64,000 nt of DNA, from the NCBI GenBank assembly GCA_017387685.1, contig JAFOEU010000055.1, forward strand, positions 89,989 to 153,988, given 5' to 3'. A program made the position numbers and the translations under genes. The stretch comes from Clostridia bacterium. GTDB taxonomy: Bacteria; Bacillota; Clostridia; Oscillospirales; CAG-272. The notes beneath the pieces are model-generated. The model worked only from the letters and a program-made list of their open reading frames with translations, was not told where the DNA came from and ran no database searches. Below, in pieces: positions 1,057 through 55,188 of the stretch. Numbering within the stretch: position 1 is the first letter of the stretch; every line of letters starts with the position of its first letter.

Positions 1057-1098
1057 AAAACAACAAAACTCACCGCTTTGGCGGTGAGTTTTGTTGTT
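1057..1098 (+). terminator. intrinsic terminator of the PFOR gene
   Basis: An 18-bp stem AAAACAACAAAACTCACCGC / GCGGTGAGTTTTGTTGTT with loop TTTG, 6 nt after the stop codon. Confidence 0.8.
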
Positions 1099-1314
1099 AG
1101 TTGCTAGTTGCTAGTTACTAGTTGCTGGTTGAAGGTGAATTTCCGAGCCGACGGCTCGGAAATTTTTGATTTTATCAAAAACAGCGGAAAAGTTTTTGAG
1201 GTTTCTTAAGGAACTTTTTTCAAAAAGTTCCTTAAGTCGAGCTCCGCAGAGCTCGAAACTCCCTTTTGCGCTTCGAAGCGACGGCGCCCCGCCGGCGTTT
1301 CGGAAGGAGTAAAA
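1094..1314 (+). repeat. composite modular repeat: 6x TTGCTAG-type heptamers, AAGGTGAATTT junction hairpin, palindrome CTTAAGGAACTTTTTTCAAAAAGTTCCTTAAG, CCGCAG-loop hairpin and a conserved tail
   Basis: Heptamers lie at 1094-1135 and the junction hairpin at 1131-1167. The downstream modules recur in reverse orientation at 19198-19289, 25515-25656, 29104-29225 and 49300-49392. Confidence 0.85.
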
Positions 1315-1337
1315 CCACCGCTTTGGCGGTGGTTTTT
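1311..1337 (-). terminator. intrinsic terminator (usable on both strands) downstream of the AAA ATPase gene
   Basis: AAAACCACCGCTTTGGCGGTGGTTTTT. It has the same CACCGCTTTGGCGGTG core as the hairpin at 1071-1086. Confidence 0.7.
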
Positions 1338-1360
1338 GGTTCAGAAGTAAAAATATTCGA

Positions 1361-2575: not shown

Positions 2576-2937
2576 TGATATCACCCCGCTTTGATTCAGA
2601 TCAATAAATATTATATCAAAAATATAATAGAAAGTCAAGTCCGATTTTGATAAATTATCGACTATAATCGAAATTATAGCGCATAATGCGAAAAGTTTCG
2701 ATTATAATCGAAATTAATAGTTTGCGTGTTAAGGCTTGTTTTGAGTAAAAAGCCTCATTAATATTTGATTCGTATCGCAATTAATGTCTTCCAAATGGCA
2801 ATTACACGTGCAAAAAAATGAAGCCGTGTTTGCTCGGCGCATTCATAAATTCGGGCAAAAATGAGTCAAAACGGCGAAAATGGGCAAAAATATGCAATAA
2901 AATGTTCGAATGAGTTGCAAAAAATTGCAAAAAGGTA

Positions 2938-4105: not shown

Positions 4106-5272
4106 ATGAAGAATATCAAGTTAATGAATAAAATCGCCGCTTGCGGTACCGATATTTTTGACCGCGCGGTATATAACGTCGCTGACGACTGTGCGGCGCC
4201 CGAGGCGATAATGGTTCGCTCCGCCGCGCTTCACGATATGGAATTCAACCCCGAGCTTCTCGCGATCGCGCGTTGCGGTGCGGGTGTCAACAATATTCCG
4301 ATCGACCGCTGCACCGAGGCGGGAGTTGTAGTTTTCAACACCCCCGGCGCGAATGCGAACGGCGTTAAGGAGCTCGTTATCTGCGCGCTGATGCTTGCAT
4401 CGCGTGACGTTATCGGCGGCGCAAATTGGTCCGAAACGCTTACAACCGACGTTGCAAAGACGGTAGAGAAGGGCAAATCCGCTTTCGCAGGCTGTGAGCT
4501 TCGCGGTAAGACTCTCGGAGTTATCGGTCTCGGCGCGATCGGAGCAATGGTCGCAAACGCCGCGATCGACCTTGGTATGAAGGTTATCGGCTACGACCCC
4601 TACCTGACCGTTGACGGAGCGTGGAGAATTTCCCGTGCGGTAGGCCACGCGGTCACAACCGACGAAATTTTTGAAAAGAGCGATTATATCACCCTCCACG
4701 TTCCCGCTGTTGAGGCAACGAAGGGTATGATCCGCAAGGAAAATATTGATAAGATGAAGGATGGCGTCAAGATCATCAACCTTGCGCGCGCGGATCTCGC
4801 GATCGCGGCTGATATCAAGGACGCAATCGCGGCGGGCAAGATCTCGGCGTACGTCACCGACTTCCCGACCGAGGAAACCCTCGGTGTCAAGGGCATCGTT
4901 AATATCCCCCACCTTGGTGCATCCACGGGTGAGAGCGAGGATAACTGCGCGATCATGGCGGCAAATCAGCTCGTTGAGTTCCTTTCCACGGGTAATATCA
5001 AGAATTCCGTCAACTTCCCCGCGATCGATCTTCCTCCCCACGACGGCAGAAACGTCCTTGTCCTCCACGCAAACGTACCCGCGACCATCGCAAAGATCAC
5101 GACCGCCGTTGCGGAAAAGGGCGTCAACATCGAGCACCTTTCCAATAAATCCCGCGGCAACAACGCTTGCACACTCCTTGCCCTCGCCGTCGGCACCACC
5201 GACGCAGAGATCGCCGAAATGAAGAAGGCTATCGAAGCAAACGCAGGCATCTGGAGAGTAGTCGTTATTTAA
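4106..5272 (+). CDS. serA: D-3-phosphoglycerate dehydrogenase with a C-terminal ACT-like domain
   Basis: 2-hydroxyacid dehydrogenase NAD site GVIGLGAIGAMVA. The protein is 388 aa and the gene lies directly downstream of serC. Confidence 0.88.
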   Translation: MKNIKLMNKIAACGTDIFDRAVYNVADDCAAPEAIMVRSAALHDMEFNPELLAIARCGAGVNNIPIDRCTEAGVVVFNTPGANANGVKELVICALMLASRDVIGGANWSETLTTDVAKTVEKGKSAFAGCELRGKTLGVIGLGAIGAMVANAAIDLGMKVIGYDPYLTVDGAWRISRAVGHAVTTDEIFEKSDYITLHVPAVEATKGMIRKENIDKMKDGVKIINLARADLAIAADIKDAIAAGKISAYVTDFPTEETLGVKGIVNIPHLGASTGESEDNCAIMAANQLVEFLSTGNIKNSVNFPAIDLPPHDGRNVLVLHANVPATIAKITTAVAEKGVNIEHLSNKSRGNNACTLLALAVGTTDAEIAEMKKAIEANAGIWRVVVI

Positions 5273-5575
5273 GTGCAGAGTTAAGAGTGCAGAGTGCAGA
5301 GTTGAGGTGGATTTTCAAGCTCCGCTTGAAAATCATTGGTGCTTTAATTTTGTGCGGTGCTGATGCAATTTACTGCTGTGCTGAAATACAGAGAATAAAA
5401 TAAAAATCTCGGATATTTCGAAGCTTCGCTTCGGATATCCGAGATTTTTTAATTTGTTATGACTTTGGCTATGTGAAATTTAATCAGCACATCACAAAAT
5501 TATTAATATGGAATTTTCGCCACGGCGAAAATTTCCCTTCAACTCTGCACTCTGCACTCTTAACTCTGCACTTGA
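5273..5575. repeat. complete foldback element filling the serA / lipoprotein convergent spacer
   Basis: 5273-5305 is the exact reverse complement of 5539-5571 (33 bp of GTGCAGA-type heptamers). Junction hairpins lie at 5310-5335 and 5511-5535. A nested inverted repeat surrounds the central terminator. Confidence 0.9.
5402..5450. terminator. bidirectional intrinsic terminator
   Basis: AAAAATCTCGGATATTTCGAAGC-TTCG-CTTCGGATATCCGAGATTTTTT, with an A-run and a T-run flanking a long stem. Confidence 0.85.
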
Positions 5576-8315: not shown

Positions 8316-8344
8316 ATTATACCATATTTGTTGGGGTATGTCAA
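8316..8344 (-). promoter_or_regulatory. sigma-A type promoter of the tmk operon
   Basis: On the minus strand: TTGACA, a 17-nt spacer, then TATAAT. Confidence 0.65.
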
Positions 8345-8402
8345 GCATAATCACGTTCCGCCCACGGAACACTTTTCGGGGGTTGCACCGCCTGCGGGCG
8401 GC

Positions 8403-8517
8403 GCGCGATATGCCTTCGGCACGATATATCCGCTTCGCGGATACGATATACCTGAAGGCACGATATATTTCGCAGAAGCGAAATGTTAAGGTAAATTTCC
8501 GCCAAGGCGGAAATTTT
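8403..8517 (+). repeat. repeat arm variant: ACGATATAT word + mini-hairpin units ending in TTAAGGTAAATTTCCGCC-AA-GGCGGAAATTTT
   Basis: The units are GCCTTCGGC, CCGCTTCGCGG, CCTGAAGGC and TTCGCAGAAGCGAA, each preceded by a CGATATA word. The junction hairpin lies at 8486-8517. Confidence 0.8.
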
Positions 8518-8538
8518 CCGATTTTATATCAAAAAAGG

Positions 8539-8568
8539 TTTGACTTTTGCCCGAAAATGTTATATAAT
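8539..8568 (+). promoter_or_regulatory. sigma-A type promoter of araB
   Basis: TTGACT, a 17-18 nt spacer, then TATAAT. The near-palindrome GTATAAATATATAC (8574-8587) downstream could be an operator. Confidence 0.55.
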
Positions 8569-8607
8569 TATTCTGTATAAATATATACTTTTAAAAGGAC
8601 CAAAACT

Positions 8608-10263
8608 ATGAAAAAATATACCGTTGGAATAGATTTCGGAACGCTTTCGGGCAGAGCTGTGCTCGTTGACGTTATGACGGGCGAGGAGTGCGCAAGCGTC
8701 GTGATGGACTACCCTCACGCCGTCATCGACAGCATCCTTCCCGCGAGCGGTGAGGTGCTCCCGATCAATTGGGCACTCGAAGACCCGCGCGATTATCTCG
8801 CAGTTCTCGAATTTCTTTTCCCCGCGCTCTGCCGCGAGGCGGGCATCGAAAAGGAGCAGATCGTCGGTGTCGGCATCGACTTCACCTGCTGTACGATCCT
8901 TCCGATCAAAAAAGACGGCACCGCGCTCGTTTCTCTGCCCGAGTTTGAGCAGAATAAGCACGCCTACGTCAAGCTCTGGAAGCATCACGCCTCCCAGCCG
9001 TGGGCGGACCGTATGAACGAGGTTGCCGCAGAGCGAGGCGAGACCTTCGTCAATTATTTTGGCGGTAAGATATCGAGCGAATGGCTCTTCCCGAAGCTTC
9101 TCCAAACCGCAAAGGAAGCCCCCGAGGTCATAGAGGCGGCTGATTACTATATCGAGGCGGGAGATTGGCTCAATTTCTTGCTCACCGGCGTGCAGAAGCG
9201 CGGATATCTTTTCGCGTCCTACAAGGCGGAGTATCTGCCGGACGTCGGATACCCCTCCGACGAATATCTCGCGGCGGTCGATCCCGAGCTACCCGAGCTC
9301 GCGCACCGTCTGCTTGACGCCCCCATCGCGCAGATGGGCGAGTGCGTCGGTCGCGTTACCAAAGAGGCGGCTGAAAGATTCGGTCTTGCCGAGGGTACTG
9401 CCGTTGCCGCGTCGATCCCCGATGCCCACGTTGCCGCCCCCGCTGTTGGACTGACCAAGCCCGGCGATATTTACGGCATTTTCGGCACTTCCAATTGCTA
9501 TTTTACACTTGCTGATATTTACAGAGATATTGGCGGAATCTGCGGATACGTTCCCGACGGTCTTATGCCGGGTTACTTCGGCGTTGAAGCGGGACTTTGC
9601 GCCGTAGGCGACCATTTTGCGTGGGTTGTGGACAATCTTGCAACCGCAGAGGACAAGGCGGAAGCCGAGCAGCTCGGAATTCCCGTCATTCAGCTCCTCG
9701 TCCGCCGCGCGGCAAAGAAAAAGCCGGGCGAAACCGGACTTCTCGCCCTCGACTGGTGGAACGGAAACCGAAACATCCTCGTTGACGGCAATCTGACGGG
9801 ACTTTTGATCGGTATGACGCTCCGCACCAAGACCGATGATATCCTCCGCGCCCTTATTGAGGCGACCGCGTTTGCGACCAAGGTCATCATCGACCGTATG
9901 GAGGAATGCGGAATGAAGATCGACAGCCTCATCGCCGCGGGCGGAATCGCGCGCAAGGACGCATTTACGATGCAGGTCTACTCCGACGTCCTCGGCATCC
10001 CGATCAATGTAATTTCCTCAAAACAGGCTCCCGCACTCGGCAGTGCTATCTACGCCGCCGTTGCCGCAGGCGAATACCCCGACATTTTTGCCGCCTCCGA
10101 CGCTATGAAGAGCCCGATCTACAGCAGTTATACCCCCAATAAAGAGAACGAAAAGGTCTACTCCGCACTCTACCGCGAATACCTCACCCTTCACGACTAT
10201 TTCGGTCGCGGCGGGAACGACGTTATGAAGCGTTTGCTTAAGATCTCGCAGGGGGAGATTTAA
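8608..10263 (+). CDS. araB: FGGY-family sugar kinase, most likely L-ribulokinase
   Basis: The N-terminus GIDFGTLSGRAVLV and the 551-aa length match ribulokinases as I remember them. Confidence 0.75.
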   Translation: MKKYTVGIDFGTLSGRAVLVDVMTGEECASVVMDYPHAVIDSILPASGEVLPINWALEDPRDYLAVLEFLFPALCREAGIEKEQIVGVGIDFTCCTILPIKKDGTALVSLPEFEQNKHAYVKLWKHHASQPWADRMNEVAAERGETFVNYFGGKISSEWLFPKLLQTAKEAPEVIEAADYYIEAGDWLNFLLTGVQKRGYLFASYKAEYLPDVGYPSDEYLAAVDPELPELAHRLLDAPIAQMGECVGRVTKEAAERFGLAEGTAVAASIPDAHVAAPAVGLTKPGDIYGIFGTSNCYFTLADIYRDIGGICGYVPDGLMPGYFGVEAGLCAVGDHFAWVVDNLATAEDKAEAEQLGIPVIQLLVRRAAKKKPGETGLLALDWWNGNRNILVDGNLTGLLIGMTLRTKTDDILRALIEATAFATKVIIDRMEECGMKIDSLIAAGGIARKDAFTMQVYSDVLGIPINVISSKQAPALGSAIYAAVAAGEYPDIFAASDAMKSPIYSSYTPNKENEKVYSALYREYLTLHDYFGRGGNDVMKRLLKISQGEI

Positions 10264-10325
10264 GTGGCTAGTGACTAGTGGCTAGTGACTAGTGAAGGTG
10301 AATTTTCGCCAAAGGCGAAAATTTT
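10264..10325 (+). repeat. repeat arm: GTGGCTA/GTGACTA heptamers + AAGGTGAATTTTCGCC-AAA-GGCGAAAATTTT
   Basis: The arm starts on the nucleotide after the araB stop. It has five heptamers and then the junction hairpin. Confidence 0.85.
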
Positions 10326-10782: not shown

Positions 10783-10786
10783 AATA

Positions 10787-10861
10787 CTTTTCGCCCACGG
10801 CGAAAAGTTACCATACCTTTTCCCTTTTCCCTTTTCCCTTTAACCTTTCCCCTCTTTCCCC
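10787..10861 (-). repeat. repeat arm (reverse orientation): hairpin CTTTTCGCC-CAC-GGCGAAAAG + GTTACC + CCTTTTC heptamers
   Basis: Heptamers occupy 10816-10861. The arm ends 10 nt before the ATG at 10872. Confidence 0.8.
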
Positions 10862-12734: not shown

Positions 12735-13583
12735 ATGCATATTAATATCAATATCGGTACAAGTGAAAAGGATTTCAACACCGAAAAGAAGAAAAAGCTC
12801 ACACCCGAGCAGAAGACGAAGATCAAAAATGCGGTAAAATCGGGTTATGGAAAGCTCCGCGTTGCCGCGGGCAGACTTTATTCGACCGTTGAGGACAAGG
12901 TCTTTGACGGCAGATGCTTCCTCTCCGAGCTGAAAGAGGGGATCCTTGAAGACGTTGCTGCCGTCCGTGAGCGAGACCCCGCGGCGAGAAGCGACATTGA
13001 GGTCATGCTTCTCTATTCGGGCGTTCACGCGATGCTCGCATACCGCGTGGCGCATAAGCTTTACGTCAATGAAAAATTTCTCCCCGCGAGAGCGGTTTCA
13101 CAGCTTGCGCGATTCCTGACGGGAATTGAGATCCACCCCGGCGCGCAGATCGGTAAGCGACTTATGATCGACCACGGCTCGGGCGTCGTAATCGGCGAGA
13201 CCTGCATCATCGGCGACGATTGCACGATCTATCAGGGCGTAACCCTCGGCGGTACGGGTAAGGACACGGGCAAGCGACACCCCACACTCGGCAATAATGT
13301 AATGGTCGGCTCGGGCGCAAAGGTCCTCGGACCGTTCAAGATCGGCGACGGCGCGAAGATCGCGGCGGGCGCGGTGGTACTCAAAGAGATCCCCGCGGGC
13401 GCGACTGCAGTCGGCATCCCCGCGAAGGTAGTGCGCCGCAAGGGCGAACGCGTTGAGGAACAGCTCGACCAGATCCACATCCCCGACCCCGTATCGCAGC
13501 AACTCGGAGAGCTTGAGGCGAAGATAGCTGAACTTAAGAGCGAGATCGAGGAGCTCAAGAAGGGCGAGGAAAGTGCAGAGTGA
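12735..13583 (+). CDS. cysE: serine O-acetyltransferase with N- and C-terminal extensions
   Basis: RERDPAARS and hexapeptide repeats (IHPGAQIGKRLMIDHGSGVVIGETCIIGDDCTIYQGVTLGG). The RBS is AAGGAG. The last codons and the stop lie inside the heptamer repeat. Confidence 0.88.
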   Translation: MHININIGTSEKDFNTEKKKKLTPEQKTKIKNAVKSGYGKLRVAAGRLYSTVEDKVFDGRCFLSELKEGILEDVAAVRERDPAARSDIEVMLLYSGVHAMLAYRVAHKLYVNEKFLPARAVSQLARFLTGIEIHPGAQIGKRLMIDHGSGVVIGETCIIGDDCTIYQGVTLGGTGKDTGKRHPTLGNNVMVGSGAKVLGPFKIGDGAKIAAGAVVLKEIPAGATAVGIPAKVVRRKGERVEEQLDQIHIPDPVSQQLGELEAKIAELKSEIEELKKGEESAE

Positions 13584-13741
13584 AGAGTGCAGAATGCAGA
13601 GTTAAGGAGAATTTCCTTGCCTGCGGCTGCGGAAATTTTCAATTCTGATATAAACTCAACTCAAACTTTATAATAAAATTATTTTTCGCTTCAGCGAAAA
13701 ATTACCGTAACTCTGCACTCTGCACTCTGCATTCTGCACTG
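13573..13741. repeat. complete foldback element (GTGCAGA arms) between cysE and the GDPD gene
   Basis: Left heptamers lie at 13573-13607 with a hairpin to 13640. The right hairpin is at 13681-13703 and CTCTGCA heptamers at 13711-13741. Confidence 0.85.
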
Positions 13742-13807
13742 TTATGCTCAACAAAATCAAGAAAAACAAATTAAAATACAAAATACATCCGAAAGGAAAC
13801 AAAGAAA

Positions 13808-18210: not shown

Positions 18211-18534
18211 TTAAATTTTCGCAAGGATTTGAAGGTCTTCAATCATTTGATTGAATTTTTCCATTCCCCAAAGTTCAATGAGTTTATCTATCGGGCAGAG
18301 GGAATCTTCCGTCAGATATTTTTGCGCAAACTCGCCGCCGTCATCAATACCTCGGTCATATTTCAAGTAATGAAGTATCAGCTCGGTCAATTCGAGAGGA
18401 TAAAGTGCCGAAGCTATATAAGCATAATCGCGTTCGCCGATAAGCTCGCGGAGCAGGTCGCATAGTGGGAGTGAAAGAAACAAGGGAGAATTTTCTTCGA
18501 GCTTATTAAAACCGGGATATTTGCAGTTTGCCAT
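18211..18534 (-). CDS. hypothetical 107-aa protein
   Basis: ORF 18211..18648 is trimmed to the ATG at 18534, which has a GAGGAG RBS. The upstream part of the ORF covers a terminator hairpin. Confidence 0.5.
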   Translation of the reverse strand: MANCKYPGFNKLEENSPLFLSLPLCDLLRELIGERDYAYIASALYPLELTELILHYLKYDRGIDDGGEFAQKYLTEDSLCPIDKLIELWGMEKFNQMIEDLQILAKI

Positions 18535-18745
18535 TTTTCTTCTCCTCAAATAAAAAGTGTTAAACAAAAAGTGCGCAGCCGAAGCCACGCACAAAAAACG
18601 TAGCTCCTTTTGCTGCGAAACAAGAAAACCTATACCTGAATTTAACACCCAAAGTATACGAAAACAGAGCGTACATTTTTATCATAGATAAAATGTACAC
18701 TTCAAGTGTATTCAATTCAGGAAACATATAGTTTTCCTGTTTCGC
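18535..18745 (-). promoter_or_regulatory. structured 5' leader L1 with an intrinsic terminator (riboswitch/attenuator-like, class unknown)
   Basis: Promoter TTTACA-17-TATAAT (18752-18780). Closing helix CUGCGAAACAGGAAAAC / GUUUUCUUGUUUCGCAG. Terminator GUGCGUGGC-UUCG-GCUGCGCAC-UUUUU (18566-18592). Confidence 0.55.
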
Positions 18746-19197: not shown

Positions 19198-19317
19198 TGG
19201 AGAGTTTCGCGCTCTGCGGAGGTCGACTTAAGGATATTCAAAAGCTTTCCCTCTGCTGTTGTCTTTTATTTGAATGAAAATTCACATTACCTCTGCCCTC
19301 TAACCTCTGCCCTTCTC
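19198..19317 (-). repeat. composite repeat (reverse orientation) ending in CCTCTGC heptamers that overlap the stop codon at 19316-19318
   Basis: GGAGAGTTTCG-GCGCTCTGCGGAGG-CGACTTAAGG...CTGCTGTTGTCTTTTATTTGAATGAAAATT, then CCTCTGC CCTCTAA CCTCTGC CCTTCTC. The junction hairpin is deleted in this copy. Confidence 0.75.
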
Positions 19318-23025: not shown

Positions 23026-23150
23026 TCGGCTTCGCCGAGTGATAATCTCGCTTCGCGAGAGTGATAATCCGCCTGCGGCGGAGTGATAATTTCCGCTGCG
23101 CGGAAAATAAAGGTGAATTTTCTCGCCTTCGGCTCAAAAATTATTAAATT
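23026..23150 (+). repeat. repeat arm: 3x AGTGATAAT + mini-hairpin units, then AATAAAGGTGAATTTT and a degenerate hairpin
   Basis: TCGGCTTCGCCGA GTGATAAT CTCGCTTCGCGAG AGTGATAAT CCGCCTGCGGCGG AGTGATAAT TTCCGCTGCGCGGAA. Confidence 0.8.
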
Positions 23151-25145: not shown

Positions 25146-25151
25146 AATAAC

Positions 25152-25450: not shown

Positions 25451-25514
25451 TAAAAACGTTATGATAAGTAAAAAAGAAATGAAGGAGCAAAAATCTCCCG
25501 CAAGGGGAGATTTT

Positions 25515-25738
25515 ACTCCTTCCGAACAGCCGCCGGGGCGGCGTCTGTTCGAAGCGCGGAGGGAGTTTCGCCGTCTGCGGACGGCGACTTAAGGCTCTGC
25601 CTTAAGAAACCGCAAGTTTTTGAAAAAACTTGACTAAAACTTTCCCGCTATCTTTATTTCGCCGCAGGCGAATTATCACTCTCGCGAAGCGAGATTATAA
25701 CTCTGCCGTAGGCAGATTATCACTCGCGCTCTGCGCGA
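25515..25738 (-). repeat. composite repeat (reverse orientation) ending in ATTATCACT + mini-hairpin units
   Basis: ACTCCTTCCGAA...TTCGAAGCGC..GGGAGTTTCG-CCGTCTGCGGACGG-CGACTTAAGG...AAAACTTTCCCGCT, then the array at 25657-25738. The mazF ORF ends inside the array. Confidence 0.8.
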
Positions 25739-26156
25739 CAACCCCCGCCTCCGCCACAGCCGCAGGCTGTACCTCCACTCCCTCCCCATACGCTCCTGCG
25801 GGAGGCAGCACTATACCAAAGCTCACCGCGATCGCGTTGTTGACTCTATCCATCATCTCATCGTCGAGGTGTCCCATCCGCTCGCGCAGGCGGCGTTTGT
25901 CGAGCGTTCTGATCTGCTCGAGCAGTATCACCGAATCCCTCGCCAGTCCCGCGCGCTCGGCGTATATGTCGATATGTGTGGGCAGGCGCGTTTTGCTCAT
26001 TCGCGATGTAATTGCCGCCGCTATCACGGTCGGACTGTATTTATTCCCAACGTCGTTTTGTATTATCAGCACGGGCCGAAGTCCGCCCTGCTCCGAGCCG
26101 ACGACGGGCGAAAGATCTGCATAATATATATCCCCTCTGCGTATCTGCGAGTTCAT
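25695..26156 (-). CDS. mazF: MazF/EndoA-type endoribonuclease toxin with a ~35-aa C-terminal extension
   Basis: [44 protein letters not shown]...LPTHIDI...[17 protein letters not shown] is very close to B. subtilis EndoA as I remember it. The tail [37 protein letters not shown] has no counterpart there. Confidence 0.85.
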
Positions 26157-26339: not shown

Positions 26340-27149
26340 ATGAATTACTGGACACAATCAAAGGATAATATATACGTTGCCGCTCATCGCGGATGGAGCA
26401 CCGTTTACCCCGAAAATACTCTCCTCGCATTTAAAAAGGCTATCGAGATCGGTGTTGACCAGATCGAGACCGACGTTCGCATCACCCGCGACGGCGAGCT
26501 TGTCTGCATCCACGATGCCGCCGTCGACCGCACCACAAACGGCACGGGTAAGGTCTGCGACAAGACTCTCGCCGAGCTCAAAACTCTCGACGCAGGCTCT
26601 TGGAAGGGCGCGGAATTCGCGGGCGAGCGCATCCCCACCTTCATCGAGTTTATGGAGCTCGTCAAGGATCATCCCACGATGACCCTCGATATTGAGCTTA
26701 AGGAATACCCCGTTGACGGACGTGACGAGATCGCATACGAGGTCTGCGACCGCGTGCTTAAGATCATAGATGATTACGGCTTTACCGACCGCGTGGTCAT
26801 CAACACCTTCAACGGCAAGCTCCACGAATATATGGAAGAGAAGTACGGCTCGAAATACCGCCGCCACATCTACTACCCCCTCACCCACATGGGCAAGGTC
26901 AAGCGCGACCCCTACACCTCCTCGGCGTACTGCTGCTGTATGTTCCGCGCACTTTACAGCCCGATCAATATGGCGACAAAGGAGGAATTCGACCGTATGA
27001 TCGCTCTCGGAGTCCGTCCTTGGGCACCCGCGGGAGTCAAGACTCAGGAGCACGTTGACGAGGTCATCGCCTGCGGCGGCGAGCTTATCACTTGCAATAA
27101 TCCCGATGAGATCCTTGCATTTTTGAGAAACAGAGGAAAGCATAATTAA
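26340..27149 (+). CDS. glycerophosphodiester phosphodiesterase (second copy)
   Basis: ORF 25869..27149 is trimmed to the ATG at 26340, which has a GGAGG RBS and the promoter TTGACT-17-TATAAT (about 26284-26312). Contains the motifs AAHRGWSTVYPENT and ETDVRITRDGELVCIHD. Confidence 0.85.
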   Translation: MNYWTQSKDNIYVAAHRGWSTVYPENTLLAFKKAIEIGVDQIETDVRITRDGELVCIHDAAVDRTTNGTGKVCDKTLAELKTLDAGSWKGAEFAGERIPTFIEFMELVKDHPTMTLDIELKEYPVDGRDEIAYEVCDRVLKIIDDYGFTDRVVINTFNGKLHEYMEEKYGSKYRRHIYYPLTHMGKVKRDPYTSSAYCCCMFRALYSPINMATKEEFDRMIALGVRPWAPAGVKTQEHVDEVIACGGELITCNNPDEILAFLRNRGKHN

Positions 27150-27208
27150 GTGCAGAGTTCAGAGTGCAGAATGCAGAGTTAAGGTAAATTTTCGCGTTGC
27201 GAAAATTA
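27150..27208 (+). repeat. repeat arm: GTGCAGA heptamers + TTAAGGTAAATTTTCGC-GTT-GCGAAAATT
   Basis: The arm starts on the nucleotide after the stop codon. The AATTTTGTGCGGTGCTGAT module also seen at 5350 follows it. Confidence 0.85.
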
Positions 27209-27275
27209 TTTCTGCGATAATTTTGTGCGGTGCTGATAAGATTTTGTGCTGAATTGAAATTGGAAGAGTAAATTG

Positions 27276-27323
27276 AAAAACTCGGATATTTTGAAGCTGG
27301 GCTTCTCGATATCCGAGTTTCTT
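27276..27323. terminator. bidirectional terminator
   Basis: AAAAACTCGGATATTTTGAAGC...CTCGATATCCGAGTTTCTT. It has the same CTCGGATAT stem as the terminators at 5402 and 45224. Confidence 0.75.
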
Positions 27324-27329
27324 ATTTAT

Positions 27330-29103: not shown

Positions 29104-29225
29104 GTTTTCCGCGGGGGGTTCGCGCTCTGCGGAGCGCGACTTAAGGAACTTTTTGAAAAAAGTTTCAGCCTGCTTGCAGGCATAGGATCATTCAAAAACT
29201 TTTCCGCTGATGTTTTTGCTTTTGG
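29104..29225 (-). repeat. composite repeat copy lacking the word array
   Basis: GGTTCG-CGCTCTGCGGAGCG-CGACTTAAGGAACTTTTTGAAAAAAGTT...AAAAACTTTTCCGCTGATGTTTTTG. Confidence 0.7.
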
Positions 29226-34430: not shown

Positions 34431-34645
34431 AGGGGATAATAGAGATAAGTTGCTCCCGAAGGGAGCAGTGATAATCTCGCTTCGCGAGAGTGATAATCCG
34501 CCTTTCGGCGGAGTGATAATTTGCCTGCGGCAAAGTAAAGGTAAATTTCCTCGCTTTGCTCGGAAATTATCGAATGATTTATTTACTTTCAGCGAAGCTG
34601 AAATTATCACTCTCGCGAAGCGAGATCATCACTGCCCCTCGGGCA
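34431..34645. repeat. foldback element with AGTGATAAT + mini-hairpin arms (about 4 left units, 2 right units)
   Basis: The left arm is 34431-34535. The junction hairpin AAGGTAAATTTCCTCGC-TTTG-CTCGGAAATT is at 34536-34568. The right arm TTTCAGCGAAGCTGAAATTATCACTCTCGCGAAGCGAGATCATCACT is at 34587-34645. Confidence 0.8.
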
Positions 34646-34697
34646 CCTTATTCGGCGTGCGGTTTTTACATATTAAATTCACGAAAGGCATTTGATT

Positions 34698-42547: not shown

Positions 42548-42548
42548 C

Positions 42549-43058
42549 CGAGATCGGGTTAATCTCGCTTCGCTCGAGTTATAATCCGCCTTCGGCGGAG
42601 TGATAATCGCCTTGCGGCGAGTGATAATTTGCCTTCGGCAAAATGAAGGTAGATTTTCGCCGAGGCGAAAATCTTTGATTTAAATAATAAGCGATGTTAC
42701 AAATAAGCCTTCCCCGGCGGGGAAGGTGGCAGCCCTTGCGGCTGCCGGATGAGGGGATCGCCGTCTGTACCGCAGACACGACAAGCGTATATGCATTTTC
42801 ATATAATTGAAAATTTCCGCCTCGGCGGAAATTCACCTTTATTTTTCGCGCAGCGAAAATTATCATTCTCGCGAAGCGAGATTATCATTTTGCCGAAGGC
42901 AGATTATCACTCGCCGCAAGGCGATTATCACTCCGCCGAAGGCGGATTATCACTCGAGCAAAGCGAGATTATCACTCCGCCGAAGGCGGATTATCACTCG
43001 AGCGAAGCGAGATTATCACTCCGCCGAAGGCGGACCATCACTCGAGCGTCAGCGAGAT
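42549..43058. repeat. large foldback element inside the ABC transporter operon (3 left units, structured core, 9 right units)
   Basis: Left words start at 42577, 42599 and 42620, with the junction hairpin at 42645-42673. The right junction hairpin is at 42809-42841. Right words ATTATCAYT start at 42859, 42881, 42903, 42924, 42946, 42968, 42990, 43012 and 43034. Confidence 0.9.
42686..42790 (+). ncRNA. conserved structured motif, copy 1 (function and functional strand unknown)
   Basis: H1 is CCTTCCCC-GGC-GGGGAAGG (42708-42726). H2 is GGCAGCC-CTTGC-GGCTGCC (42728-42746). GGATGAGGGGATCGCC follows. H3 is GTCTG-TACCG-CAGAC (42763-42777). Confidence 0.4.
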
Positions 43059-46359: not shown

Positions 46360-46364
46360 TTAAA

Positions 46365-46432
46365 GTTACTAGTTGCTAGTTATTAGTTACTAGTTAAAGG
46401 TAAATTTCCGCCCCGATGGGGCGGAAATTTTT
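46365..46432 (+). repeat. repeat arm: GTTRCTA heptamers + TTAAAGGTAAATTTCCGCCCC-GAT-GGGGCGGAAATTTTT
   Basis: The arm begins 5 nt after the rbr stop. It matches the reverse-oriented arm at 48087-48153 at about 42 of 48 positions. Confidence 0.85.
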
Positions 46433-47012: not shown

Positions 47013-48088
47013 GATTCATATTCCCTCAAAACGGCGACTGCATAAATGCAAATGACGGCTTACCGCTCAAAGTACTCGTTGAAGCACCTGCCGATGGCGA
47101 TATTTACGTCGGCGGCGTGAAAGCCGAATTTTCGGACGGCGTGTGGAGTACAACCGTGCCGATTTCCGCATATAAAACCACTCTCACAGCCGAAAACAGA
47201 AAAAACGGCGATAACTGCGCCGTCACTCTGCTGAAATTTGCCGATCCCGTGGGCAAGTTCCGCCTCTCATCCGATGATAACATCCTCTTTTTGCAGGATA
47301 TTACGAAAAATCAGGATAAATACACCTCGATTTTCGATAACCCCTACCTCGCGCTTTACAAAAAAGCGCACGATCTCTACGGCGCGTGCATTCATCTCAA
47401 TCTGTTTTACGAATATATCCCCGACGAAAAATATTTCGCCGCCCATCCCGATTATTTCAATCTCTCGATGATGACGGACAAATTCAAGTCGGAATTCGAG
47501 GCGAATTCGGATTGGCTCAAGCTCGCATTCCACTCAAATGCCGAATTCCCCGATAAGCCGTATAAATTCGCGACCGCAGAGCAGATCACCGAGGATTTTC
47601 TCAAGATTCGCCGCGAGATCGTTCGCTTCGCGGGGGAGAGCTCGACGACGAACTCGACCACCGTTCATTTCGGTGCGGCGAACCGCGAGGTCGTCCGCGC
47701 ACTCCACGCCCTCGGTCTGCGCTCGCTGACGGGGTATTTCAGACGCAATGCAAAGGGCGAACCGAGCGTTTCCTACTATTTTGAGGACGAAAGGCTTGAA
47801 CATATCGGCTCGCGCGACTTCTGGTACGATGAGAGCGAGGATATGATCTTCGCGCAGATCGATCTTGTGCTCAATGAAAAGACCTACTCCGACGTGATGG
47901 AAGCCCTCCCGAGGATCGCGGACGATCCGCACCGCGGCGGTTTCATCTCGCTGATGATCCACGAGCAGTATTTCCACCCCGACTACCGCCGCCACCTCCC
48001 CGATTTCGAGGCACGCGTGCTTGATTCTTGTGCATTCTTGCATAAGAGGGGATACATTGGCGAGCATATATCAAATATTACAAAATAA
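47009..48088 (+). CDS. hypothetical 359-aa protein
   Basis: It overlaps the upstream gene by ATGA. I recognise no motif with confidence. Confidence 0.5.
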   Translation: MRFIFPQNGDCINANDGLPLKVLVEAPADGDIYVGGVKAEFSDGVWSTTVPISAYKTTLTAENRKNGDNCAVTLLKFADPVGKFRLSSDDNILFLQDITKNQDKYTSIFDNPYLALYKKAHDLYGACIHLNLFYEYIPDEKYFAAHPDYFNLSMMTDKFKSEFEANSDWLKLAFHSNAEFPDKPYKFATAEQITEDFLKIRREIVRFAGESSTTNSTTVHFGAANREVVRALHALGLRSLTGYFRRNAKGEPSVSYYFEDERLEHIGSRDFWYDESEDMIFAQIDLVLNEKTYSDVMEALPRIADDPHRGGFISLMIHEQYFHPDYRRHLPDFEARVLDSCAFLHKRGYIGEHISNITK

Positions 48089-48153
48089 AAAATCCGCTCG
48101 AAAATCGAGCGGATTTTTACCTTTAACCAGCAACTAACAACTAGCAACTAGCA
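48087..48153 (-). repeat. repeat arm (reverse orientation): hairpin/terminator AAAAAATCCGCTCG-AAAA-CGAGCGGATTTTT + ACCTTTAACC + AACTAGC-type heptamers
   Basis: The arm ends 7 nt before the stop of the minus-strand transporter gene. The hairpin also serves as terminator for the + gene ending at 48088. Confidence 0.85.
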
Positions 48154-48160
48154 ACTTTTA

Positions 48161-49150: not shown

Positions 49151-49299
49151 AGAATTTACCTTTCTTCCTATTTTATATAACCACAATATTTTACCACTTT
49201 TTCCCCCGCGCTTCAAGTACAAATATTGACGATTTTATACATTTTATGCTAATATTTTTGTGCCAAGTGCTGTTGCGCCGTCTGTGGTCGGCACGGGGT

Positions 49300-49455
49300 G
49301 ACAAGACAGAGTCGCAGCTTGCCGCAGGCAAGTGTGAACTTCTTGAAAAAGTTCGATCAAAACTTACCGCTGCTGTTGTCTTTTATTTGATTGAAAATTT
49401 CCGAGCAAAGCGAGGAAATTCTCCTTAACTCTGCACTCTGCATTCTGCACTCTGT
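49300..49455 (-). repeat. composite repeat (reverse orientation) ending in CTCTGCA heptamers
   Basis: CTTGCCGCAGGCAAG...GAACTTCTTGAAAAAGTTC...AAAACTTACCGCTGCTGTTGTCTTTTATTTGATTGAAAATTTCCGAGC-AAAG-CGAGGAAATTCTCCTTAA, followed by the heptamers. Confidence 0.8.
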
Positions 49456-49473
49456 ATTTTGCCTCCTCAAATA

Positions 49474-52357: not shown

Positions 52358-52588
52358 AGTATGACCTCCTTTGAGTGTTGAGATAATTGTATCACAAAAC
52401 GGAGGAAAATGCAATAGGGTAGGGGAAATATCTCGCGAAGCGAGAGTTATAATCTCGCTTACGCTCGAGTGATGATCCGCCTTGCGGCGGAGTGATAATC
52501 TCGCTTCGCTCGAGTGATAATTTGCCTGCGGCAAAGTTAAGGTGGATTTTCGCCGAGGCGAAAATCTCGATTTTTATTAAAATAATTT

Positions 52589-52695
52589 GCAAGTCTGTCA
52601 TATCTGCGGTACAGACTTCGATCTCCTCATCCACCACTGCCGTGGTCCCCCTTCCCCGCTGGGGAAGGCTGATTTTGAACATCGCTTATCATTTC
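52589..52695 (-). ncRNA. conserved structured motif, copy 3 (inverted relative to copies 1 and 2)
   Basis: The reverse complement reads GCCTTCCCC-AGC-GGGGAAGG, then GACCAC-GGCA-GTGGT, then GGATGAGGAGATCGAA, then GTCTGT...ACAGAC. H2 has a different sequence but still pairs. Confidence 0.4.
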
Positions 52696-52824
52696 TAAAC
52701 TTCGTTAAGTACGCTAATCATATCAAGAAAATGATAAAAACAAAATATATTTACAACTATTTTGCTAATTATGAGTAAGGAAATATAATTATCGAGTCTT
52801 TCTGCGGTGCTATATCACTATAAC

Positions 52825-52916
52825 ATATGTTCGCAGTTGCTATATAAGCCTTCCCCAGCGGGGAAGGTGGCAGCCCTTGGGGCTGACGGATGAGGAGACC
52901 GAAGTCTGTACTAGAC
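52825..52916 (+). ncRNA. conserved structured motif, copy 2
   Basis: CCTTCCCC-AGC-GGGGAAGG (52849-52867), GGCAGCC-CTTGG-GGCTGAC, GGATGAGGAGACCGAA, GTCT-GTACT-AGAC. Confidence 0.4.
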
Positions 52917-53147
52917 GAGGAATAGAGGCACTTATTATTTAATAAATATCGAAGATTTTCGCCGAGGCGAAAATCAACCTTAACTTTGCCGCAGGCAAAT
53001 TATCACTCGAGCGAAGCGAGATTATCACTCCGCCGAAGGCGGATTATCACTCTCGCGTAAGCAAGATTATCACTCCGCCGCAAGGCGGATTATCACTCTC
53101 GCGTAAGCGAGATTATCACTCCGCCGCAAGGCGGATTATCACTAAAT

Positions 53148-53181: not shown

Positions 53182-55188
<2,007 letters not shown>

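What the first reader, a model, noticed from the sequence alone, without database searches (positions are those of the whole stretch)
1094..1314. Family-level grammar: about 18 clear copies in 64 kb of [word array]-AAGGTGAATTT-[hairpin with variable stem], plus optional conserved modules
By eye, junction plus hairpin occurs in + orientation at 11 places.
- 1131-1167, 5303-5335, 8486-8517, 10294-10325, 13602-13640, 23110-23150
- 27179-27208, 34536-34568, 42645-42673, 46394-46432, 52536-52565
It occurs in reverse orientation at 7 places.
- 5511-5540, 10787-10815, 13681-13710, 42809-42841, 48087-48130, 49393-49427, 52954-52984
Degenerate copies lie near 19270, 25655 and 34587. The flanks (T)TAAGGTRAATTTY and RAAATTTT are conserved. 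The stems differ while still pairing: CCGAGCC/GGCTCGG, CAAGC/GCTTG, CGCC/GGCG, CCGCC/GGCGG, CGC/GCG and CCGCCCC/GGGGCGG. The word arrays also differ between copies.
- TTGCTAG/GTTRCTA, GTGCAGA, GTGRCTA, CCTTTTC and CCTCTGC heptamers
- AGTGATAAT + 13-nt hairpin units
- ACGATATAT + hairpin units
Longer copies add further modules: AAAACTTTTCCGCTG, the perfect palindrome CTTAAGGAACTTTTTTCAAAAAGTTCCTTAAG (1205-1236), a hairpin with a CTGCGG/CCGCAG loop, and TTTTACTCCTTCCGAA...TTCGAAGCGC..GGGAGTTTCG. These modules are shared by 1168-1314, 19198-19289, 25515-25656, 29104-29225 and 49300-49392. Conserved scaffold with compensatory stems and interchangeable word sets points to selection on structure or to a copy-and-diversify mechanism, not to simple decay of a single MITE.
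Basis: seen in the sequence. Interest (0 to 1): 0.85.

Follow-up and report, generated by a model that had tools for sequence, protein, structure and literature searches.

The report
Modular terminator-bearing repeat family in gut Clostridia
The window comes from an uncultured ruminant-gut Clostridium whose gene ends carry a very abundant, modular repeat (a short word array, a fixed junction and a terminator-like hairpin); one module matches the orphan "Gut-1" RNA motif, and the family turns over quickly between close relatives.

Summary
All 18 listed copies have the form [tandem array]-AAGGTRAATTT-[GC hairpin clamped by AAATTT]-T-run, and the three listed degenerate copies and the optional modules are also present.

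- **Chance:** the junction occurs 12 times against 1.2 expected. The stems covary strongly.
- **Arrays:** they come in two interchangeable kinds. One is about four in-phase heptamers (RTKNNNA) that usually start 0-7 nt after the stop codon of the co-oriented gene. The other is 22-nt units (9-nt linker plus 13-nt mini-hairpin) that are sub-threshold relatives of Rfam Gut-1. A relative carries an above-threshold Gut-1 hit followed by the same junction and hairpin.
- **Architecture:** arms often occur as mirror pairs forming 300-700-nt palindromes. Copies at different loci share 73-87% identity over 77-304 nt, so they spread by copying.
- **Turnover:** among relatives 85-97% identical, a pair is present or absent at the same site. 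At two sites the array is replaced while the orthologous hairpin stays.
- **Range:** the family was found only in a narrow clade of animal-gut Clostridia MAGs.

Best reading: a REP/BIME/MITE-like mosaic repeat family whose core acts as a bidirectional intrinsic terminator at gene ends. The mobilising activity is unknown. I rate it a new variant of a known kind, of moderately high interest.

The parts
1093..1167 (+). E1 arm. Array GTTGTTA/GTTGCTA x5 (1093-1127), junction GTTGAAGG TGAATTT (1128-1142), hairpin 1137-1165, then T-run. It lies downstream of the PFOR gene and that gene's own terminator hairpin (1065-1093).
1168..1340 (+). Long module. Contains AAAACTTTTCCGCTG (reverse complement), palindrome 1205-1236, the CCGCAG-loop hairpin and the AACTCCC...TTCGAA / TTCGGAAGGAGT helix enclosing a GC hairpin. 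It ends in the terminator-like hairpin 1312-1340.
5270..5335 (+). E2 arm. Stop codon TAA (5270-5272), 4 heptamers (5273-5300), junction (5301-5314), hairpin CAAGC/GCTTG.
5336..5510 (.). Interior of the E2/E3 palindromic composite. Mirror copies of TAATTTTGTGCGGTGCTGAT and a central bidirectional hairpin at about 5414-5453. Homologous to 27209-27329.
5511..5575 (-). E3 arm, mirror of E2. The array is identical to E2 over 35 nt but the hairpin differs (CGCC/GGCG). It starts 4 nt after the TGA stop of the gene at 5576-7153.
8386..8517 (+). E4. ACGATATAT-linker mini-hairpin units, junction GTTAAGGTAAATTT, hairpin CCGCC/GGCGG. It sits in a divergent intergenic region just upstream of the FGGY promoter (TTGACT-17-TATAAT, 8540-8568).
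10261..10325 (+). E5. TAA stop of the FGGY kinase gene, GTGGCTA/GTGACTA x4, junction GTGAAGG TGAATTT, hairpin. The array is replaced by RTGCAAA x3 in relative L125.
10786..10860 (-). E6. GGGAAAA-type heptamers (CCTTTTC on the + strand), junction GGTATGG TAACTTT, hairpin with a compensated clamp (AACTTTTC/GAAAAGT).
13572..13640 (+). E7. GTGCAGA-type x4. The TGA stop of the upstream gene lies inside the second heptamer. Junction GTTAAGG AGAATTT, then hairpin.
13681..13740 (-). E8. Mirror arm of E7, GTGCAGA-type x4, junction GTTACGG TAATTTT, hairpin CGC/GCG.
19198..19317 (-). E9, degenerate. AGAGGGC/AGAGGTT heptamers beginning at the stop of the gene at 19316-20188, junction remnant AATGTGAATTT (19278-19288), hairpin core deleted, partial long module.
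23029..23150 (+). E10. AGTGATAAT-linker mini-hairpin units x3.5, junction AATAAAGGTGAATTT, decayed hairpin.
25476..25740 (-). E11. Four AGTGATAAT-type units (25657-25740; sub-threshold Gut-1 hit at 25646-25725) joined directly to a complete long module, which ends in the terminator-like hairpin at about 25483-25510.
27147..27329 (+). E12. TAA stop, GTGCAGA-type x4, junction, hairpin (to 27208). The interior is homologous to 5336-5454, including the CTCGGATAT...ATATCCGAG hairpin. There is no second arm.
29104..29225 (-). E13. Partial long module only (CAGCGGAAAAGTTTTTG ... CTTAAG palindrome ... CCGCAG-loop hairpin).
34451..34568 (+). E14a. Mini-hairpin units x4, junction AGTAAAGGTAAATTT, hairpin of the YCTCGC-NNN-GCTCGR subtype (2x2 internal loop).
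34587..34650 (-). E14b. Mirror array of mini-hairpin units without its own junction hairpin.
42548..42673 (+). E15. Mini-hairpin units starting right after the FtsX TGA stop, junction AATGAAGGTAGATTT, hairpin. Sub-threshold Gut-1 hit at 42576-42654 (30.4 bits).
42674..42808 (.). Interior of the E15/E16 composite. It contains a copy of a second repeat (GCCTTCCCC..GGGGAAGG..GGATGAGG).
42809..43058 (-). E16. Mirror arm with about 10 mini-hairpin units, ending 17 nt before the ABC-transporter start codon. Sub-threshold Gut-1 hits of 32.5 and 26.3 bits.
46360..46432 (+). E17. GTTRCTA x4 beginning 5 nt after the rubrerythrin TAA stop, junction GTTAAAGG TAAATTT, hairpin CCGCCCC/GGGGCGG. Against L134 the array has 4 substitutions in 28 nt (14%) while the hairpin is identical.
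48087..48160 (-). E18. GTTGCTA x4 beginning 5 nt after the Mem_trans TGA stop, junction GTTAAAGG TAAAAAT, hairpin CCGCTCGA/TCGAGCGG. In L134 the same hairpin carries a compensatory change and follows four mini-hairpin units instead.
49223..49462 (-). E19. ATACAGA/GTGCAGA x4 (49428-49462), junction, hairpin (49393-49427), rearranged long module (49223-49392). About 105 nt are some 95% conserved in L135, against about 85% genome-wide.
52432..52565 (+). E20. Mini-hairpin units, junction AGTTAAGGTGGATTT, hairpin.
52566..52953 (.). Interior of the E20/E21 composite. AT-rich core flanked by two inverted copies of the second repeat. The whole composite is absent in L134, L135 and L136.
52954..53143 (-). 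E21. Seven mini-hairpin units after FtsH's own terminator hairpin, junction AGTTAAGGTTGATTT, hairpin.

Best explanation
This is a lineage-specific superfamily of non-coding, modular, dispersed intergenic repeats in an uncultured spore-forming Clostridia clade from ruminant and other animal guts.

**Anatomy**
- Core: the motif AAGGTRAATTT running into a GC-rich hairpin. The base of the hairpin is the self-complementary clamp AAATTTYC/GRAAATTT, followed by 1-3 more T. That is the anatomy of a bidirectional Rho-independent terminator.
- 5' of the core sits one of two interchangeable arrays. One is about four in-phase heptamers RTKNNNA, usually starting 0-7 nt after the stop codon of the co-oriented gene. 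The other is tandem 22-nt units made of a 9-nt linker (AGTGATAAT, AATGATRRT or GTGAAAT) and a 13-nt mini-hairpin; these correspond to the Rfam Gut-1 motif.
- 3' of the core there may be a roughly 170-nt multi-hairpin module with its own terminator. Alternatively there is a mirror-image second arm, giving 300-700-nt palindromic composites.

**Shown**
- Copies at different loci are homologous over 77-304 nt, so they arose by copying.
- Close relatives differ by presence or absence of whole pairs, by unit number, and by replacement of the array while the hairpin is kept.
- The hairpins covary.

**Inferred**
- The core hairpin serves as the transcription terminator and 3'-end protecting structure of the gene it abuts.
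- Mirror pairs insulate neighbouring or convergent genes.
- Spread and module exchange occur by recombination or template switching at the conserved junction and hairpin flanks, possibly helped by an unidentified transposase.
- Stems drift while staying paired, through compensatory or palindrome-correcting mutation.
For: **Family is real and enriched.** Junction 12 matches against 1.2 expected. The covariance model recovers 18 window copies plus about 25 in relatives.

**Hairpin.** Covariation is shown. Predicted stems are -4 to -21 kcal/mol and are followed by T-runs.

**Position.**
- For about 17 heptamer arms, the distance from the stop codon to the model hit is 22-31 nt, that is a gap of 0-7 nt.
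- Unit number is 4 in 17 of 28 arms by the automatic count, and about 20 of 29 after hand correction.

**Copying.** Inter-locus identity is 80.6% over 304 nt (42703-42998 vs 52844-53143), 77% over 190 nt (5266-5454 vs 27143-27327), 86% over 77 nt (E1 vs E17), and 73.5% over 170 nt for the long module.

**Turnover.**
- The E20/E21 composite (about 650 nt) is absent in L134, L135 and L136, which keep only 1-2 hairpin units there.
- L132 and L133 carry a pair right after the GdpP stop where the window, L130 and L131 are empty.
- L125 has one heptamer fewer in E3.
- The array is replaced at a conserved hairpin at E5 and E18.

**Palindromic composite.** 5270-5575 folds at -155.6 kcal/mol, z = -17.5.

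**Link to Gut-1.** Hits in the window score 25.8-32.5 bits. L052 has a 53.6-bit hit, above the cutoff of 50, followed by GTTAAGGTAGAAATTTGCC...hairpin.

**Clade restriction.** The junction-hairpin model finds copies in relatives with FtsH at least 82% identical (L130-L137). It finds none in 22 kb of a 71% relative or in four unrelated loci. In the GTDB scan, true members occur only in Clostridia/Eubacteriales gut MAGs.
Against: - There are no expression or 3'-end data, so termination is inferred from anatomy only.
- No transposase was found in the window or the fetched loci, and no target-site duplication was seen.
- Roughly half of the arms, mostly mini-hairpin arrays and the distal arms of pairs, are antisense to or upstream of the neighbouring gene. 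They cannot be that gene's terminator.
- The near-constant four heptamers and the exact abutment to stop codons are not explained by a terminator-plus-selfish-spread model alone.
- A pair sits inside what looks like the GdpP-L9 operon in L132.
- The covariation controls do not exclude mutational palindrome correction, and the alignment used was fitted to the model.
Confidence: 0.55

Rival explanations
1. A purely selfish element that transposes through single-stranded DNA hairpins (REP/REPIN-RAYT or IS200/IS605 PATE-like). It is mobilised in trans by a Y1 HUH transposase encoded elsewhere in the genome and has no host function. Its position at gene ends reflects only where insertions are tolerated in a compact genome.
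For: - The elements are high-copy, extragenic and palindromic, and occur as mirror pairs like REPINs.
- Sites show presence/absence polymorphism.
- Mini-hairpin loops are strongly strand-asymmetric. On the element strand 41 of 43 are TNC or TTNC, which reads as GNA triloops or GNRA tetraloops on the other strand. From general knowledge, these include the very stable d(GCGAAGC) type. That fits selection on a single strand.
Against: - No Y1 or other transposase was found in 64 kb or in about 150 kb of relatives.
- There is no GTAG or CGTC tag next to the hairpins.
- Units are in direct, not alternating, orientation.
- No target-site duplication was found.
- Hairpins at orthologous sites are better conserved than their surroundings.
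- Heptamer arms abut stop codons far more tightly than tolerance alone predicts.
Confidence: 0.2
2. An RNA-level protein-binding platform. The four heptamers (NAG-UG-NN, period 7) or the single-stranded linkers between mini-hairpins (AGUGAUAAU, GUGAAAU) are multivalent sites for an oligomeric RNA-binding protein. That protein would tune termination at the adjacent hairpin or the fate of the mRNA 3' end, in the manner of HutP, TRAP or Csr/Rsm-type sponge RNAs. The long module would be a small RNA.
For: - There is a strong mode of four units, in phase with the junction.
- A conserved A|GTG core gives NAG every 7 nt, the spacing of HutP sites (general knowledge).
- Its authors rated Gut-1 as certainly an RNA (PMC2864571).
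- G-U pairs occur on the element strand 14 times against 3 on the opposite strand.
- The long module keeps a U-G pair in 3 of 4 copies, shows compensatory changes in 11 of 45 pairs, and ends in a terminator.
Against: - Words differ between copies, and some lack NAG (ATGCAAA).
- Arrays of the two kinds replace each other at one site.
- Many arms are antisense to their neighbours.
- L137 has arrays of 7 and at least 18 units.
- No candidate binding protein was identified.
- Most of the G-U excess comes from one position.
Confidence: 0.15
3. Unrelated ordinary terminators that merely look alike, or an assembly artefact.
For: A/T-flanked GC hairpins are generic. The whole-collection scan with the junction-hairpin pattern was dominated by chance matches in unrelated taxa.
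Against: - The junction is tenfold enriched.
- Homology extends well beyond the hairpin, up to 304 nt.
- Ordinary terminators without the junction coexist in the window.
- The same elements appear in independent assemblies from ENA, Logan and NCBI MAGs.
Confidence: 0.02

Closest known systems
Gut-1 RNA motif (Rfam RF01706; Weinberg et al. 2010, PMC2864571)
   Same: Both consist of tandem short GC hairpins with UNCG-like loops separated by a conserved single-stranded linker (GUGAAAU). The window arrays align end to end with the 77-nt model. L052 has an above-threshold hit followed by the family junction and hairpin.
   Different: - Window arrays use the linker AGUGAUAAU and score 26-32 bits, against a cutoff of 50.
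- Gut-1 was described as a stand-alone non-coding RNA from the human gut with no host organism.
- Here the arrays have a variable number of units (1 to about 10), are one interchangeable module of a dispersed repeat, occur in both orientations relative to genes, and sit in identifiable Clostridia MAGs.
REP / BIME / REPIN elements with RAYT transposases (Enterobacteria, Pseudomonas; PMC2817692, PMC3116915, PMC3733652)
   Same: Both are hundreds-per-genome extragenic palindromes. Both have a mosaic of conserved linkers and hairpins, inverted doublets, a location at gene ends and a proposed role in termination and mRNA stabilisation.
   Different: - There is no GTAG or CGTC tag.
- Units are direct rather than alternating.
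- Stems vary while flanks are conserved, the reverse of REPs.
- Heptamer arrays have no REP counterpart.
- No RAYT was seen.
- The host is a Firmicute.
Modular MITE-like repeats that carry terminators or promoters: Neisseria Correia elements and pneumococcal BOX elements (boxA-boxB(n)-boxC). This comparison is from general knowledge.
   Same: Both are small non-coding dispersed elements with inverted ends. Both have a variable number of an internal or subterminal module and can affect transcription of neighbouring genes.
   Different: There is no TA or other target duplication, no sequence similarity and no known parent IS. The arms share words but have different hairpins.
Intergenic tandem heptamers: cyanobacterial STRR sequences (general knowledge) and TAACTGA repeats of Beggiatoaceae (PMC4679880)
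   Same: Both are short arrays (2-6 units) of 7-nt words in intergenic DNA, found at many loci per genome, of unknown function, and cause contig breaks.
   Different: The known arrays use one or a few fixed words, lie mostly just upstream of start codons (TAACTGA) and are not coupled to a junction and hairpin. Here the words vary between loci, the number is about 4, and arrays start at stop codons and run in phase into a conserved hairpin.
HutP and TRAP RNA targets (general knowledge)
   Same: Both have NAG triplets repeated with fixed spacing (7 nt for HutP) immediately upstream of a terminator hairpin.
   Different: The known targets are single loci regulated by a dedicated protein. Here there are dozens of sites per 64 kb, some words lack NAG, and no hutP-like gene was seen.

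Membership tests
Rfam Gut-1 (RF01706) | Covariance-model score at or above the curated gathering score of 50 bits | tested here: not met
   Window arrays score 25.8, 32.5, 30.4 and 26.3 bits, and the gathering-threshold scan of the window found nothing. A relative meets the cutoff: L052 438-521(-) scores 53.6 bits.
Rfam Gut-1 (RF01706) | Three or more tandem GC hairpins separated by a conserved GUGAAAU-like single-stranded linker | tested here: met
   The arrays align over the full model (positions 1-77) with all three stems paired. The linker is AGUGAUAAU in the window and GUGAAAU in L052 and L125.
REP / BIME / REPIN | High-copy extragenic imperfect palindromes of 20-40 nt | tested here: met
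   There are 18 core hairpins plus more than 40 mini-hairpins, all intergenic, in 64 kb.
REP / BIME / REPIN | Conserved GTAG or CGTC tetranucleotide at one end of the palindrome | tested here: not met
   Hairpins are preceded by GTRAATTT or by ATAAT, with no GTAG or CGTC.
REP / BIME / REPIN | A RAYT (Y1 HUH) transposase gene in the genome, typically flanked by REPs | not testable with these tools
   No such domain appears among the window ORFs or in the gene tables of the fetched loci. The rest of the genome could not be fetched.
MITE | Terminal inverted repeats and no coding capacity | tested here: met
   The mirror pairs are 5270-5575 (38-bp perfect outer stem), 13572-13740, 42548-43058 and 52432-53143. 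Their interiors are 40-390 nt and contain no ORF.
MITE | Target-site duplication and a related autonomous IS | tested here: not met
   No direct repeats flank the pairs, and none appear at the filled versus empty site after GdpP. No parent element was found. The 27-nt similar hairpins flanking E1 (1065-1093 and 1312-1340) are the only duplication-like feature.
Rho-independent (intrinsic) terminator | A stable GC-rich stem-loop followed directly by a U-tract, downstream of a stop codon | tested here: inconclusive
   - Predicted stems are -4 to -21 kcal/mol, with an AAAUUU(U)n 3' side.
- Twelve of about 22 arms follow a co-oriented gene.
- A simple scan scores only some of them, because part of the T-run is inside the stem.
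- Function was not measured.
HutP-type antiterminator target | (NAG-N4)x3 sites next to a terminator, together with a hutP gene | tested here: inconclusive
   NAG with period 7 is present in most words through the conserved A|G boundary but absent from ATGCAAA-type words. No HutP domain was found in the window.
Heptamer LSSR / STRR-type tandem repeats | Head-to-tail 7-nt units in intergenic DNA at many loci | tested here: met
   TRF reports 12 period-7 rows of 3.9-6.3 copies that fall in family arrays (the 2.1-copy row at 13773-13787 is excluded). No word is shared with STRR or TAACTGA.

The most novel reading that the evidence does not exclude
The segment between a gene's stop codon and the conserved AAGG junction may be a cassette that a dedicated activity actively rewrites. 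That activity could be hairpin-primed or template-switching synthesis, or a recombinase acting at the junction. A second version is that this segment is the multivalent docking site of an oligomeric RNA-binding protein that sets read-through at hundreds of gene ends, that is, a genome-wide terminator-tuning system. Three observations keep these readings open: the length is nearly fixed at 4 x 7 nt, the words change freely, and arrays and their stop codons are swapped at orthologous hairpins (E5, E17, E18).
Probability: 0.12. Interest if true: 0.9.

Novelty: new variant of a known kind. Interest (0 to 1): 0.64.

Why it matters
- **Gut-1 gets a context.** Gut-1 has been an orphan "certainly RNA" motif since 2010, with no host and no function. 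Here its relatives are placed in identifiable Clostridia genomes, as one interchangeable module of a terminator-bearing repeat that fills about 5% of the window.
- **Size of the family.** If the density of about one arm per 3 kb holds genome-wide, this is one of the densest interspersed repeat systems known in a Firmicute. It would shape the 3' ends of a large fraction of transcripts.
- **Unusual features.** The stop-codon anchoring, the fixed number of heptamers and the array swapping at conserved hairpins are not features of described REP, BIME or MITE families. They give concrete hypotheses that metatranscriptomes and Term-seq can test.
- **Practical consequences.** The elements break short-read assemblies: Logan contigs end inside arrays. 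They also create spurious ORF calls, such as the 80-aa "gene" called over E4.

Tried and rejected
1. **GTDB genome scan** with AAGGTRAATTTYC-N(4-24)-GRAAAT.
2. **Metagenome scan** with the FGGY kinase. It gave only one close relative, L125.
3. **Viral-contig scans**. The linker pattern hit unrelated coding repeats, and the word-plus-junction pattern hit nothing, so there is no sign of phage carriage.
4. **Rfam at gathering threshold** on the window found nothing. The heptamer composite has no meaningful weak hit either.
5. **Bacteroidetes origin**, considered because of TAnnTTTG-like strings, was rejected. Genes have strong AAGGAGG ribosome-binding sites and the window encodes SpoIIR.
6. **Other element types** were considered and dropped on anatomy. 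These were integron attC (GTTRRRY core), type III toxin-antitoxin repeat arrays, CRISPR, and mini-ORFs re-initiating at the GTG after the stop. The reasons were housekeeping gene context, no toxin or cas genes, no conserved reading frame, and frame not conserved between orthologues.
7. **Three-frame stop arrays** fit GTTGCTA and GTGRCTA but not GTGCAGA or ATGCAAA.
8. **Target-site duplications** were not found.
9. **Transposase search by Pfam** found none.
10. **Literature search by sequence strings** found nothing relevant.
11. **Strand choice from G-U counts** gave only a weak signal, mostly from one position.
Full report
**Source and context**

The window is a chromosomal stretch of an uncultured bacterium.
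- An identical 20-kb segment is on ENA metagenome scaffold XIEF21-1_SAMN15829842, and identical pieces are on Logan contigs of SRR12529331 and SRR12529397.
- Genes are housekeeping: PFOR, FtsH, DnaB, ribosomal protein L9, TilS, fructose-bisphosphate aldolase and rubrerythrin. The window also encodes SpoIIR, and start codons are preceded by strong AAGGAGG sites. The host is therefore a spore-forming member of the Clostridia.
- No transposase domain was found in any window ORF.

**Check of the observation**

- The junction AAGGTGAATTT with at most 1 mismatch occurs 12 times against 1.23 expected; 0 of 100 shuffles reach that.
- Printing the 18 listed sites shows the same grammar in every one.
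- TRF independently reports the 7-nt and the 22-23-nt arrays.
- A covariance model of junction plus hairpin recovers all 18 window copies and about 25 more in relatives.
- The hairpin base is the self-complementary clamp AAATTTYC/GRAAATTT. The Y:R position covaries (UA 10, CG 7), and the GC core differs from copy to copy while staying paired. In the 18 copies, 87% of cells pair against 77% in shuffles (0/500), and the slid controls collapse to 59% or less.
- With relatives included, 90.5% pair against 77.6%. That alignment was fitted to the model and contains orthologues and both strands of palindromes.
- The palindrome at 1205-1236 and the five long-module copies are as described.

1. *Phase.* The heptamers are in phase with the junction, which itself reads as two more 7-nt units (GTTAAGG TRAATTT). 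The array ends in a partial unit whose first 3-4 nt follow the local word: ATG-words give ATGAAGG and GTTG-words give GTTGAAGG. The truly invariant part is AAGG-TRA-ATTT.
2. *Unit number.* It is four in 17 of 28 arms by the automatic count, and about 20 of 29 after correcting four miscounts by eye. The range is 3-7, with one array of at least 18 units at a contig end in the most distant relative that has the family.
3. *Stop-codon anchoring.* Heptamer arms begin 0-7 nt after the stop codon of a long, Pfam-supported, co-oriented ORF in about 17 cases. In two further cases the stop lies inside the array.
4. *Mirror pairs.* Arms often come as mirror pairs: 5270-5575, 13572-13740, 34451-34650, 42548-43058 and 52432-53143. 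In most pairs the two arms carry the same word, for example 35 identical nt at 5273/5572, but different core hairpins. The 306-nt composite at 5270-5575 folds into one long hairpin with a 38-bp perfect outer stem (z = -17.5).
5. *Mini-hairpin loops.* The loops of the 22-nt arrays are strongly strand-asymmetric. On the element strand 41 of 43 are TTC, TGC, TAC, TTGC, TTTC or TTAC, which read as GNA or GNRA loops on the other strand.
6. *Long module.* It has four or five hairpins, shows compensatory changes in 11 of 45 pairs among only four copies, keeps a U-G pair in three of the four, and ends in its own terminator-like hairpin.

**Link to a known motif**

- The 22-nt arrays give full-length but sub-threshold matches to Rfam Gut-1 (RF01706): 25.8-32.5 bits against a cutoff of 50.
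- In a goat-caecum Clostridia MAG, a match of 53.6 bits is followed directly by GTTAAGGTAGAAATTTGCC-AAG-GCAAATTTC, the family junction and hairpin.
- Weinberg et al. 2010 listed Gut-1 as certainly an RNA, not cis-regulatory, and found only in human gut metagenomes (PMC2864571).
- The array module of this family is therefore the previously described Gut-1 motif or a close sister of it, now with a host and a genomic context.

**Distribution**

The matches that also had an upstream array were all from Clostridia or Eubacteriales gut MAGs: RGIG1801, JAZSOQ01, JAZSMP01, JAZSLM01 and JAZQJB01.
- I used FtsH as a ruler. The junction-hairpin model finds copies in relatives at 99, 96, 95, 91 and 82% protein identity. 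The 87% relative (L132) gives only weak matches at 21-24 bits, but its arm after the GdpP stop is clear by eye.
- The model finds nothing in 22 kb around FtsH of a 71% relative or in four unrelated loci.

**Evidence for copying**

Copies at different loci are homologous well beyond the hairpin:
- 80.6% over 304 nt between the two Gut-1-type composites;
- 77% over 190 nt between 5266-5454 and 27143-27327;
- 86% over 77 nt between E1 and E17;
- 73.5% over 170 nt for the long module.

In relatives the same interior scaffold (TAATTTTGTGCKGTGCTGAT ... CTCGGATAT hairpin) carries other words: GTTGYTA in L131 and ATGCARA in L028.

**Evidence for turnover**

- Against L125 (92-96% nucleotide identity), the E2/E3 composite is retained almost unchanged but has one heptamer fewer.
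- At E5 the hairpin and downstream DNA are orthologous, but the array is GTGRCTA x4 in the window and RTGCAAA x3 in L125, and the stop codon also differs.
- E4 is replaced in part by a small-gene cassette in L125.
- Against L134 (96-97%), E17 keeps an identical hairpin while its array has 4 substitutions in 28 nt (14%) and a different stop codon.
- At E18 the unusual AAAAATCC hairpin is orthologous and carries a compensatory T:A to C:G change. It follows four heptamers in the window but four mini-hairpin units in L134.
- The roughly 650-nt E20/E21 composite is absent from L134, L135 and L136, which keep one or two mini-hairpin units at that site. L130 has it.
- L132 and L133 carry a pair inserted immediately after the GdpP stop codon. 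The window, L130 and L131 have a 31-33-nt spacer there, and no target duplication is visible.
- E19 points the other way. It is about 95% conserved over 105 nt against L135, with a 61-nt run identical, where the genomes are about 85% identical.

**Interpretation**

- The core has the anatomy of a bidirectional intrinsic terminator. Stems are -4 to -21 kcal/mol, the 3' side is AAAUUU plus further U, and for many genes it is the only hairpin after the stop codon. Ordinary terminators lacking the junction coexist in the window.
- Homology between loci and presence/absence polymorphism show a dispersed, copied element.
- The mosaic of modules and the array swaps point to recombination or template switching at the conserved junction and hairpin flanks.
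- The identical stem and loop in the two hairpins that flank E1 (1065-1093 and 1312-1340) differ from the usual stem of that module. This hints that hairpin cores can be copied between neighbours.
- I therefore read the family as a Firmicute counterpart of REP/BIME/MITE-type mosaic repeats that supplies terminators and 3'-end structures.
- Three things remain unexplained: the preference for four heptamers, the exact abutment to stop codons, and the strand-specific loops.
- These features keep two rivals alive. One is a single-stranded-DNA transposon mobilised by an unseen Y1 enzyme. The other is an RNA platform for an oligomeric binding protein, with NAG spaced at 7 nt as in HutP sites (general knowledge).
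- There are no expression data, so terminator function is an inference.

**Comparison with known systems**

- Heptamer arrays at many intergenic loci are known from cyanobacteria (STRR, general knowledge) and from Beggiatoaceae (TAACTGA, PMC4679880). Those use fixed words, lie mostly before start codons and lack the junction and hairpin.
- REP/BIME/REPIN elements share copy number, palindromy and mosaic structure. They have a GTAG or CGTC tag, alternating orientation and RAYT genes (PMC2817692, PMC3733652). Where testable here, those features were not found.

**Verdict**

The family is a new variant of a known kind (interspersed palindromic mosaic repeats; Gut-1) and not a categorically new system. 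Several of its features are unexplained and testable.

Noticed in passing
window 42703-42760 (+), 52640-52694 (-), 52844-52900 (+); L125 1-50 and 6953-7010; L052 540-600: A second, unrelated repeat family lies inside or next to the Gut-1-type composites. Its sequence is AAGCCTTCCCCnGCGGGGAAGGTGGCAGCCCTTGnGGCTGnCGGATGAGG, and relatives carry ...CCCTCATCACCCGCTGCGGCGGGAGCTTCTCCCAGGAGAAGCC.
   Followed up: no
window 18886-18933 and 19025-19071: A 47-nt inverted repeat, GTCATCCTGAGCGAAGCGTAAGCGTAGTCGAAGGATCTCGCGAAGCG, flanks an AT-rich 90-nt spacer. It looks like another small palindromic element.
   Followed up: no
window 24488-24757 (-) and 18211-18534 (-), with leaders at 24775-24801 and 18564-18592; L125 about 4590-4960: Two small genes, one of them DUF6809 (Pfam E = 1.6e-16), are each preceded by the same hairpin leader AAAAAGTGCGCAGCCGAAGCCRCGCAC. 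A third such cassette is inserted in L125 exactly where the window has the end of element E4.
   Followed up: partly
window about 25150-25405: A 29-codon hydrophobic peptide ORF on the - strand (MEEYITWDDLIKIAMLIIAIITCFKNKKR) has a strong ribosome-binding site and its own terminator. It is bracketed by an inverted repeat of about 30 nt and looks like a type I toxin.
   Followed up: no
window 53185-55176 (+) over ftsH; 23313-24389 (+) over the aldolase gene; 4121-5137 (-); 39585-40874 (-): Several housekeeping genes carry a nearly full-length open reading frame on the opposite strand. The two scanned against Pfam (53185-55176 and 23313-24389) have no hit. These are probably a codon-usage by-product, but there are unusually many.
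   Followed up: partly
L130 9240-9430; L131 9431-9642; L132 2660-2878: A third MITE-like repeat, containing TTGTAAAACGCAGTTTTACAA, is present in relatives between genes that are adjacent or overlapping in the window.
   Followed up: no
L137 1-130 and 11690-11740: In the most distant relative that has the family, the heptamer arrays are much longer: at least 18 units at a contig end and 7 units in one arm. The preference for four units is therefore not universal.
   Followed up: partly
window 1065-1093 and 1312-1340: The PFOR terminator and the last hairpin of the long module 250 nt downstream share an identical stem and loop (CACCGC-TTTG-GCGGTG). Other copies of that module end in CTCCCC-TTGC-GGGAG. 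The stem may have been copied between neighbouring hairpins, or the target terminator may have been duplicated.
   Followed up: partly
window 8338-8580 (+): An 80-aa gene called in the public assembly lies entirely over the E4 hairpin array and the FGGY promoter. It is almost certainly a spurious ORF. Logan contigs also end inside arrays (window 8425, 10293, 13737 and 34496).
   Followed up: partly
window 2652-2716 and 2853-2891: A 19-nt tandem repeat (AAATTATCGACTATAATCG x3.3) and (GGGCAAAAAT)x4 lie upstream of the AAA_14/DUF4143 ATPase gene.
   Followed up: no
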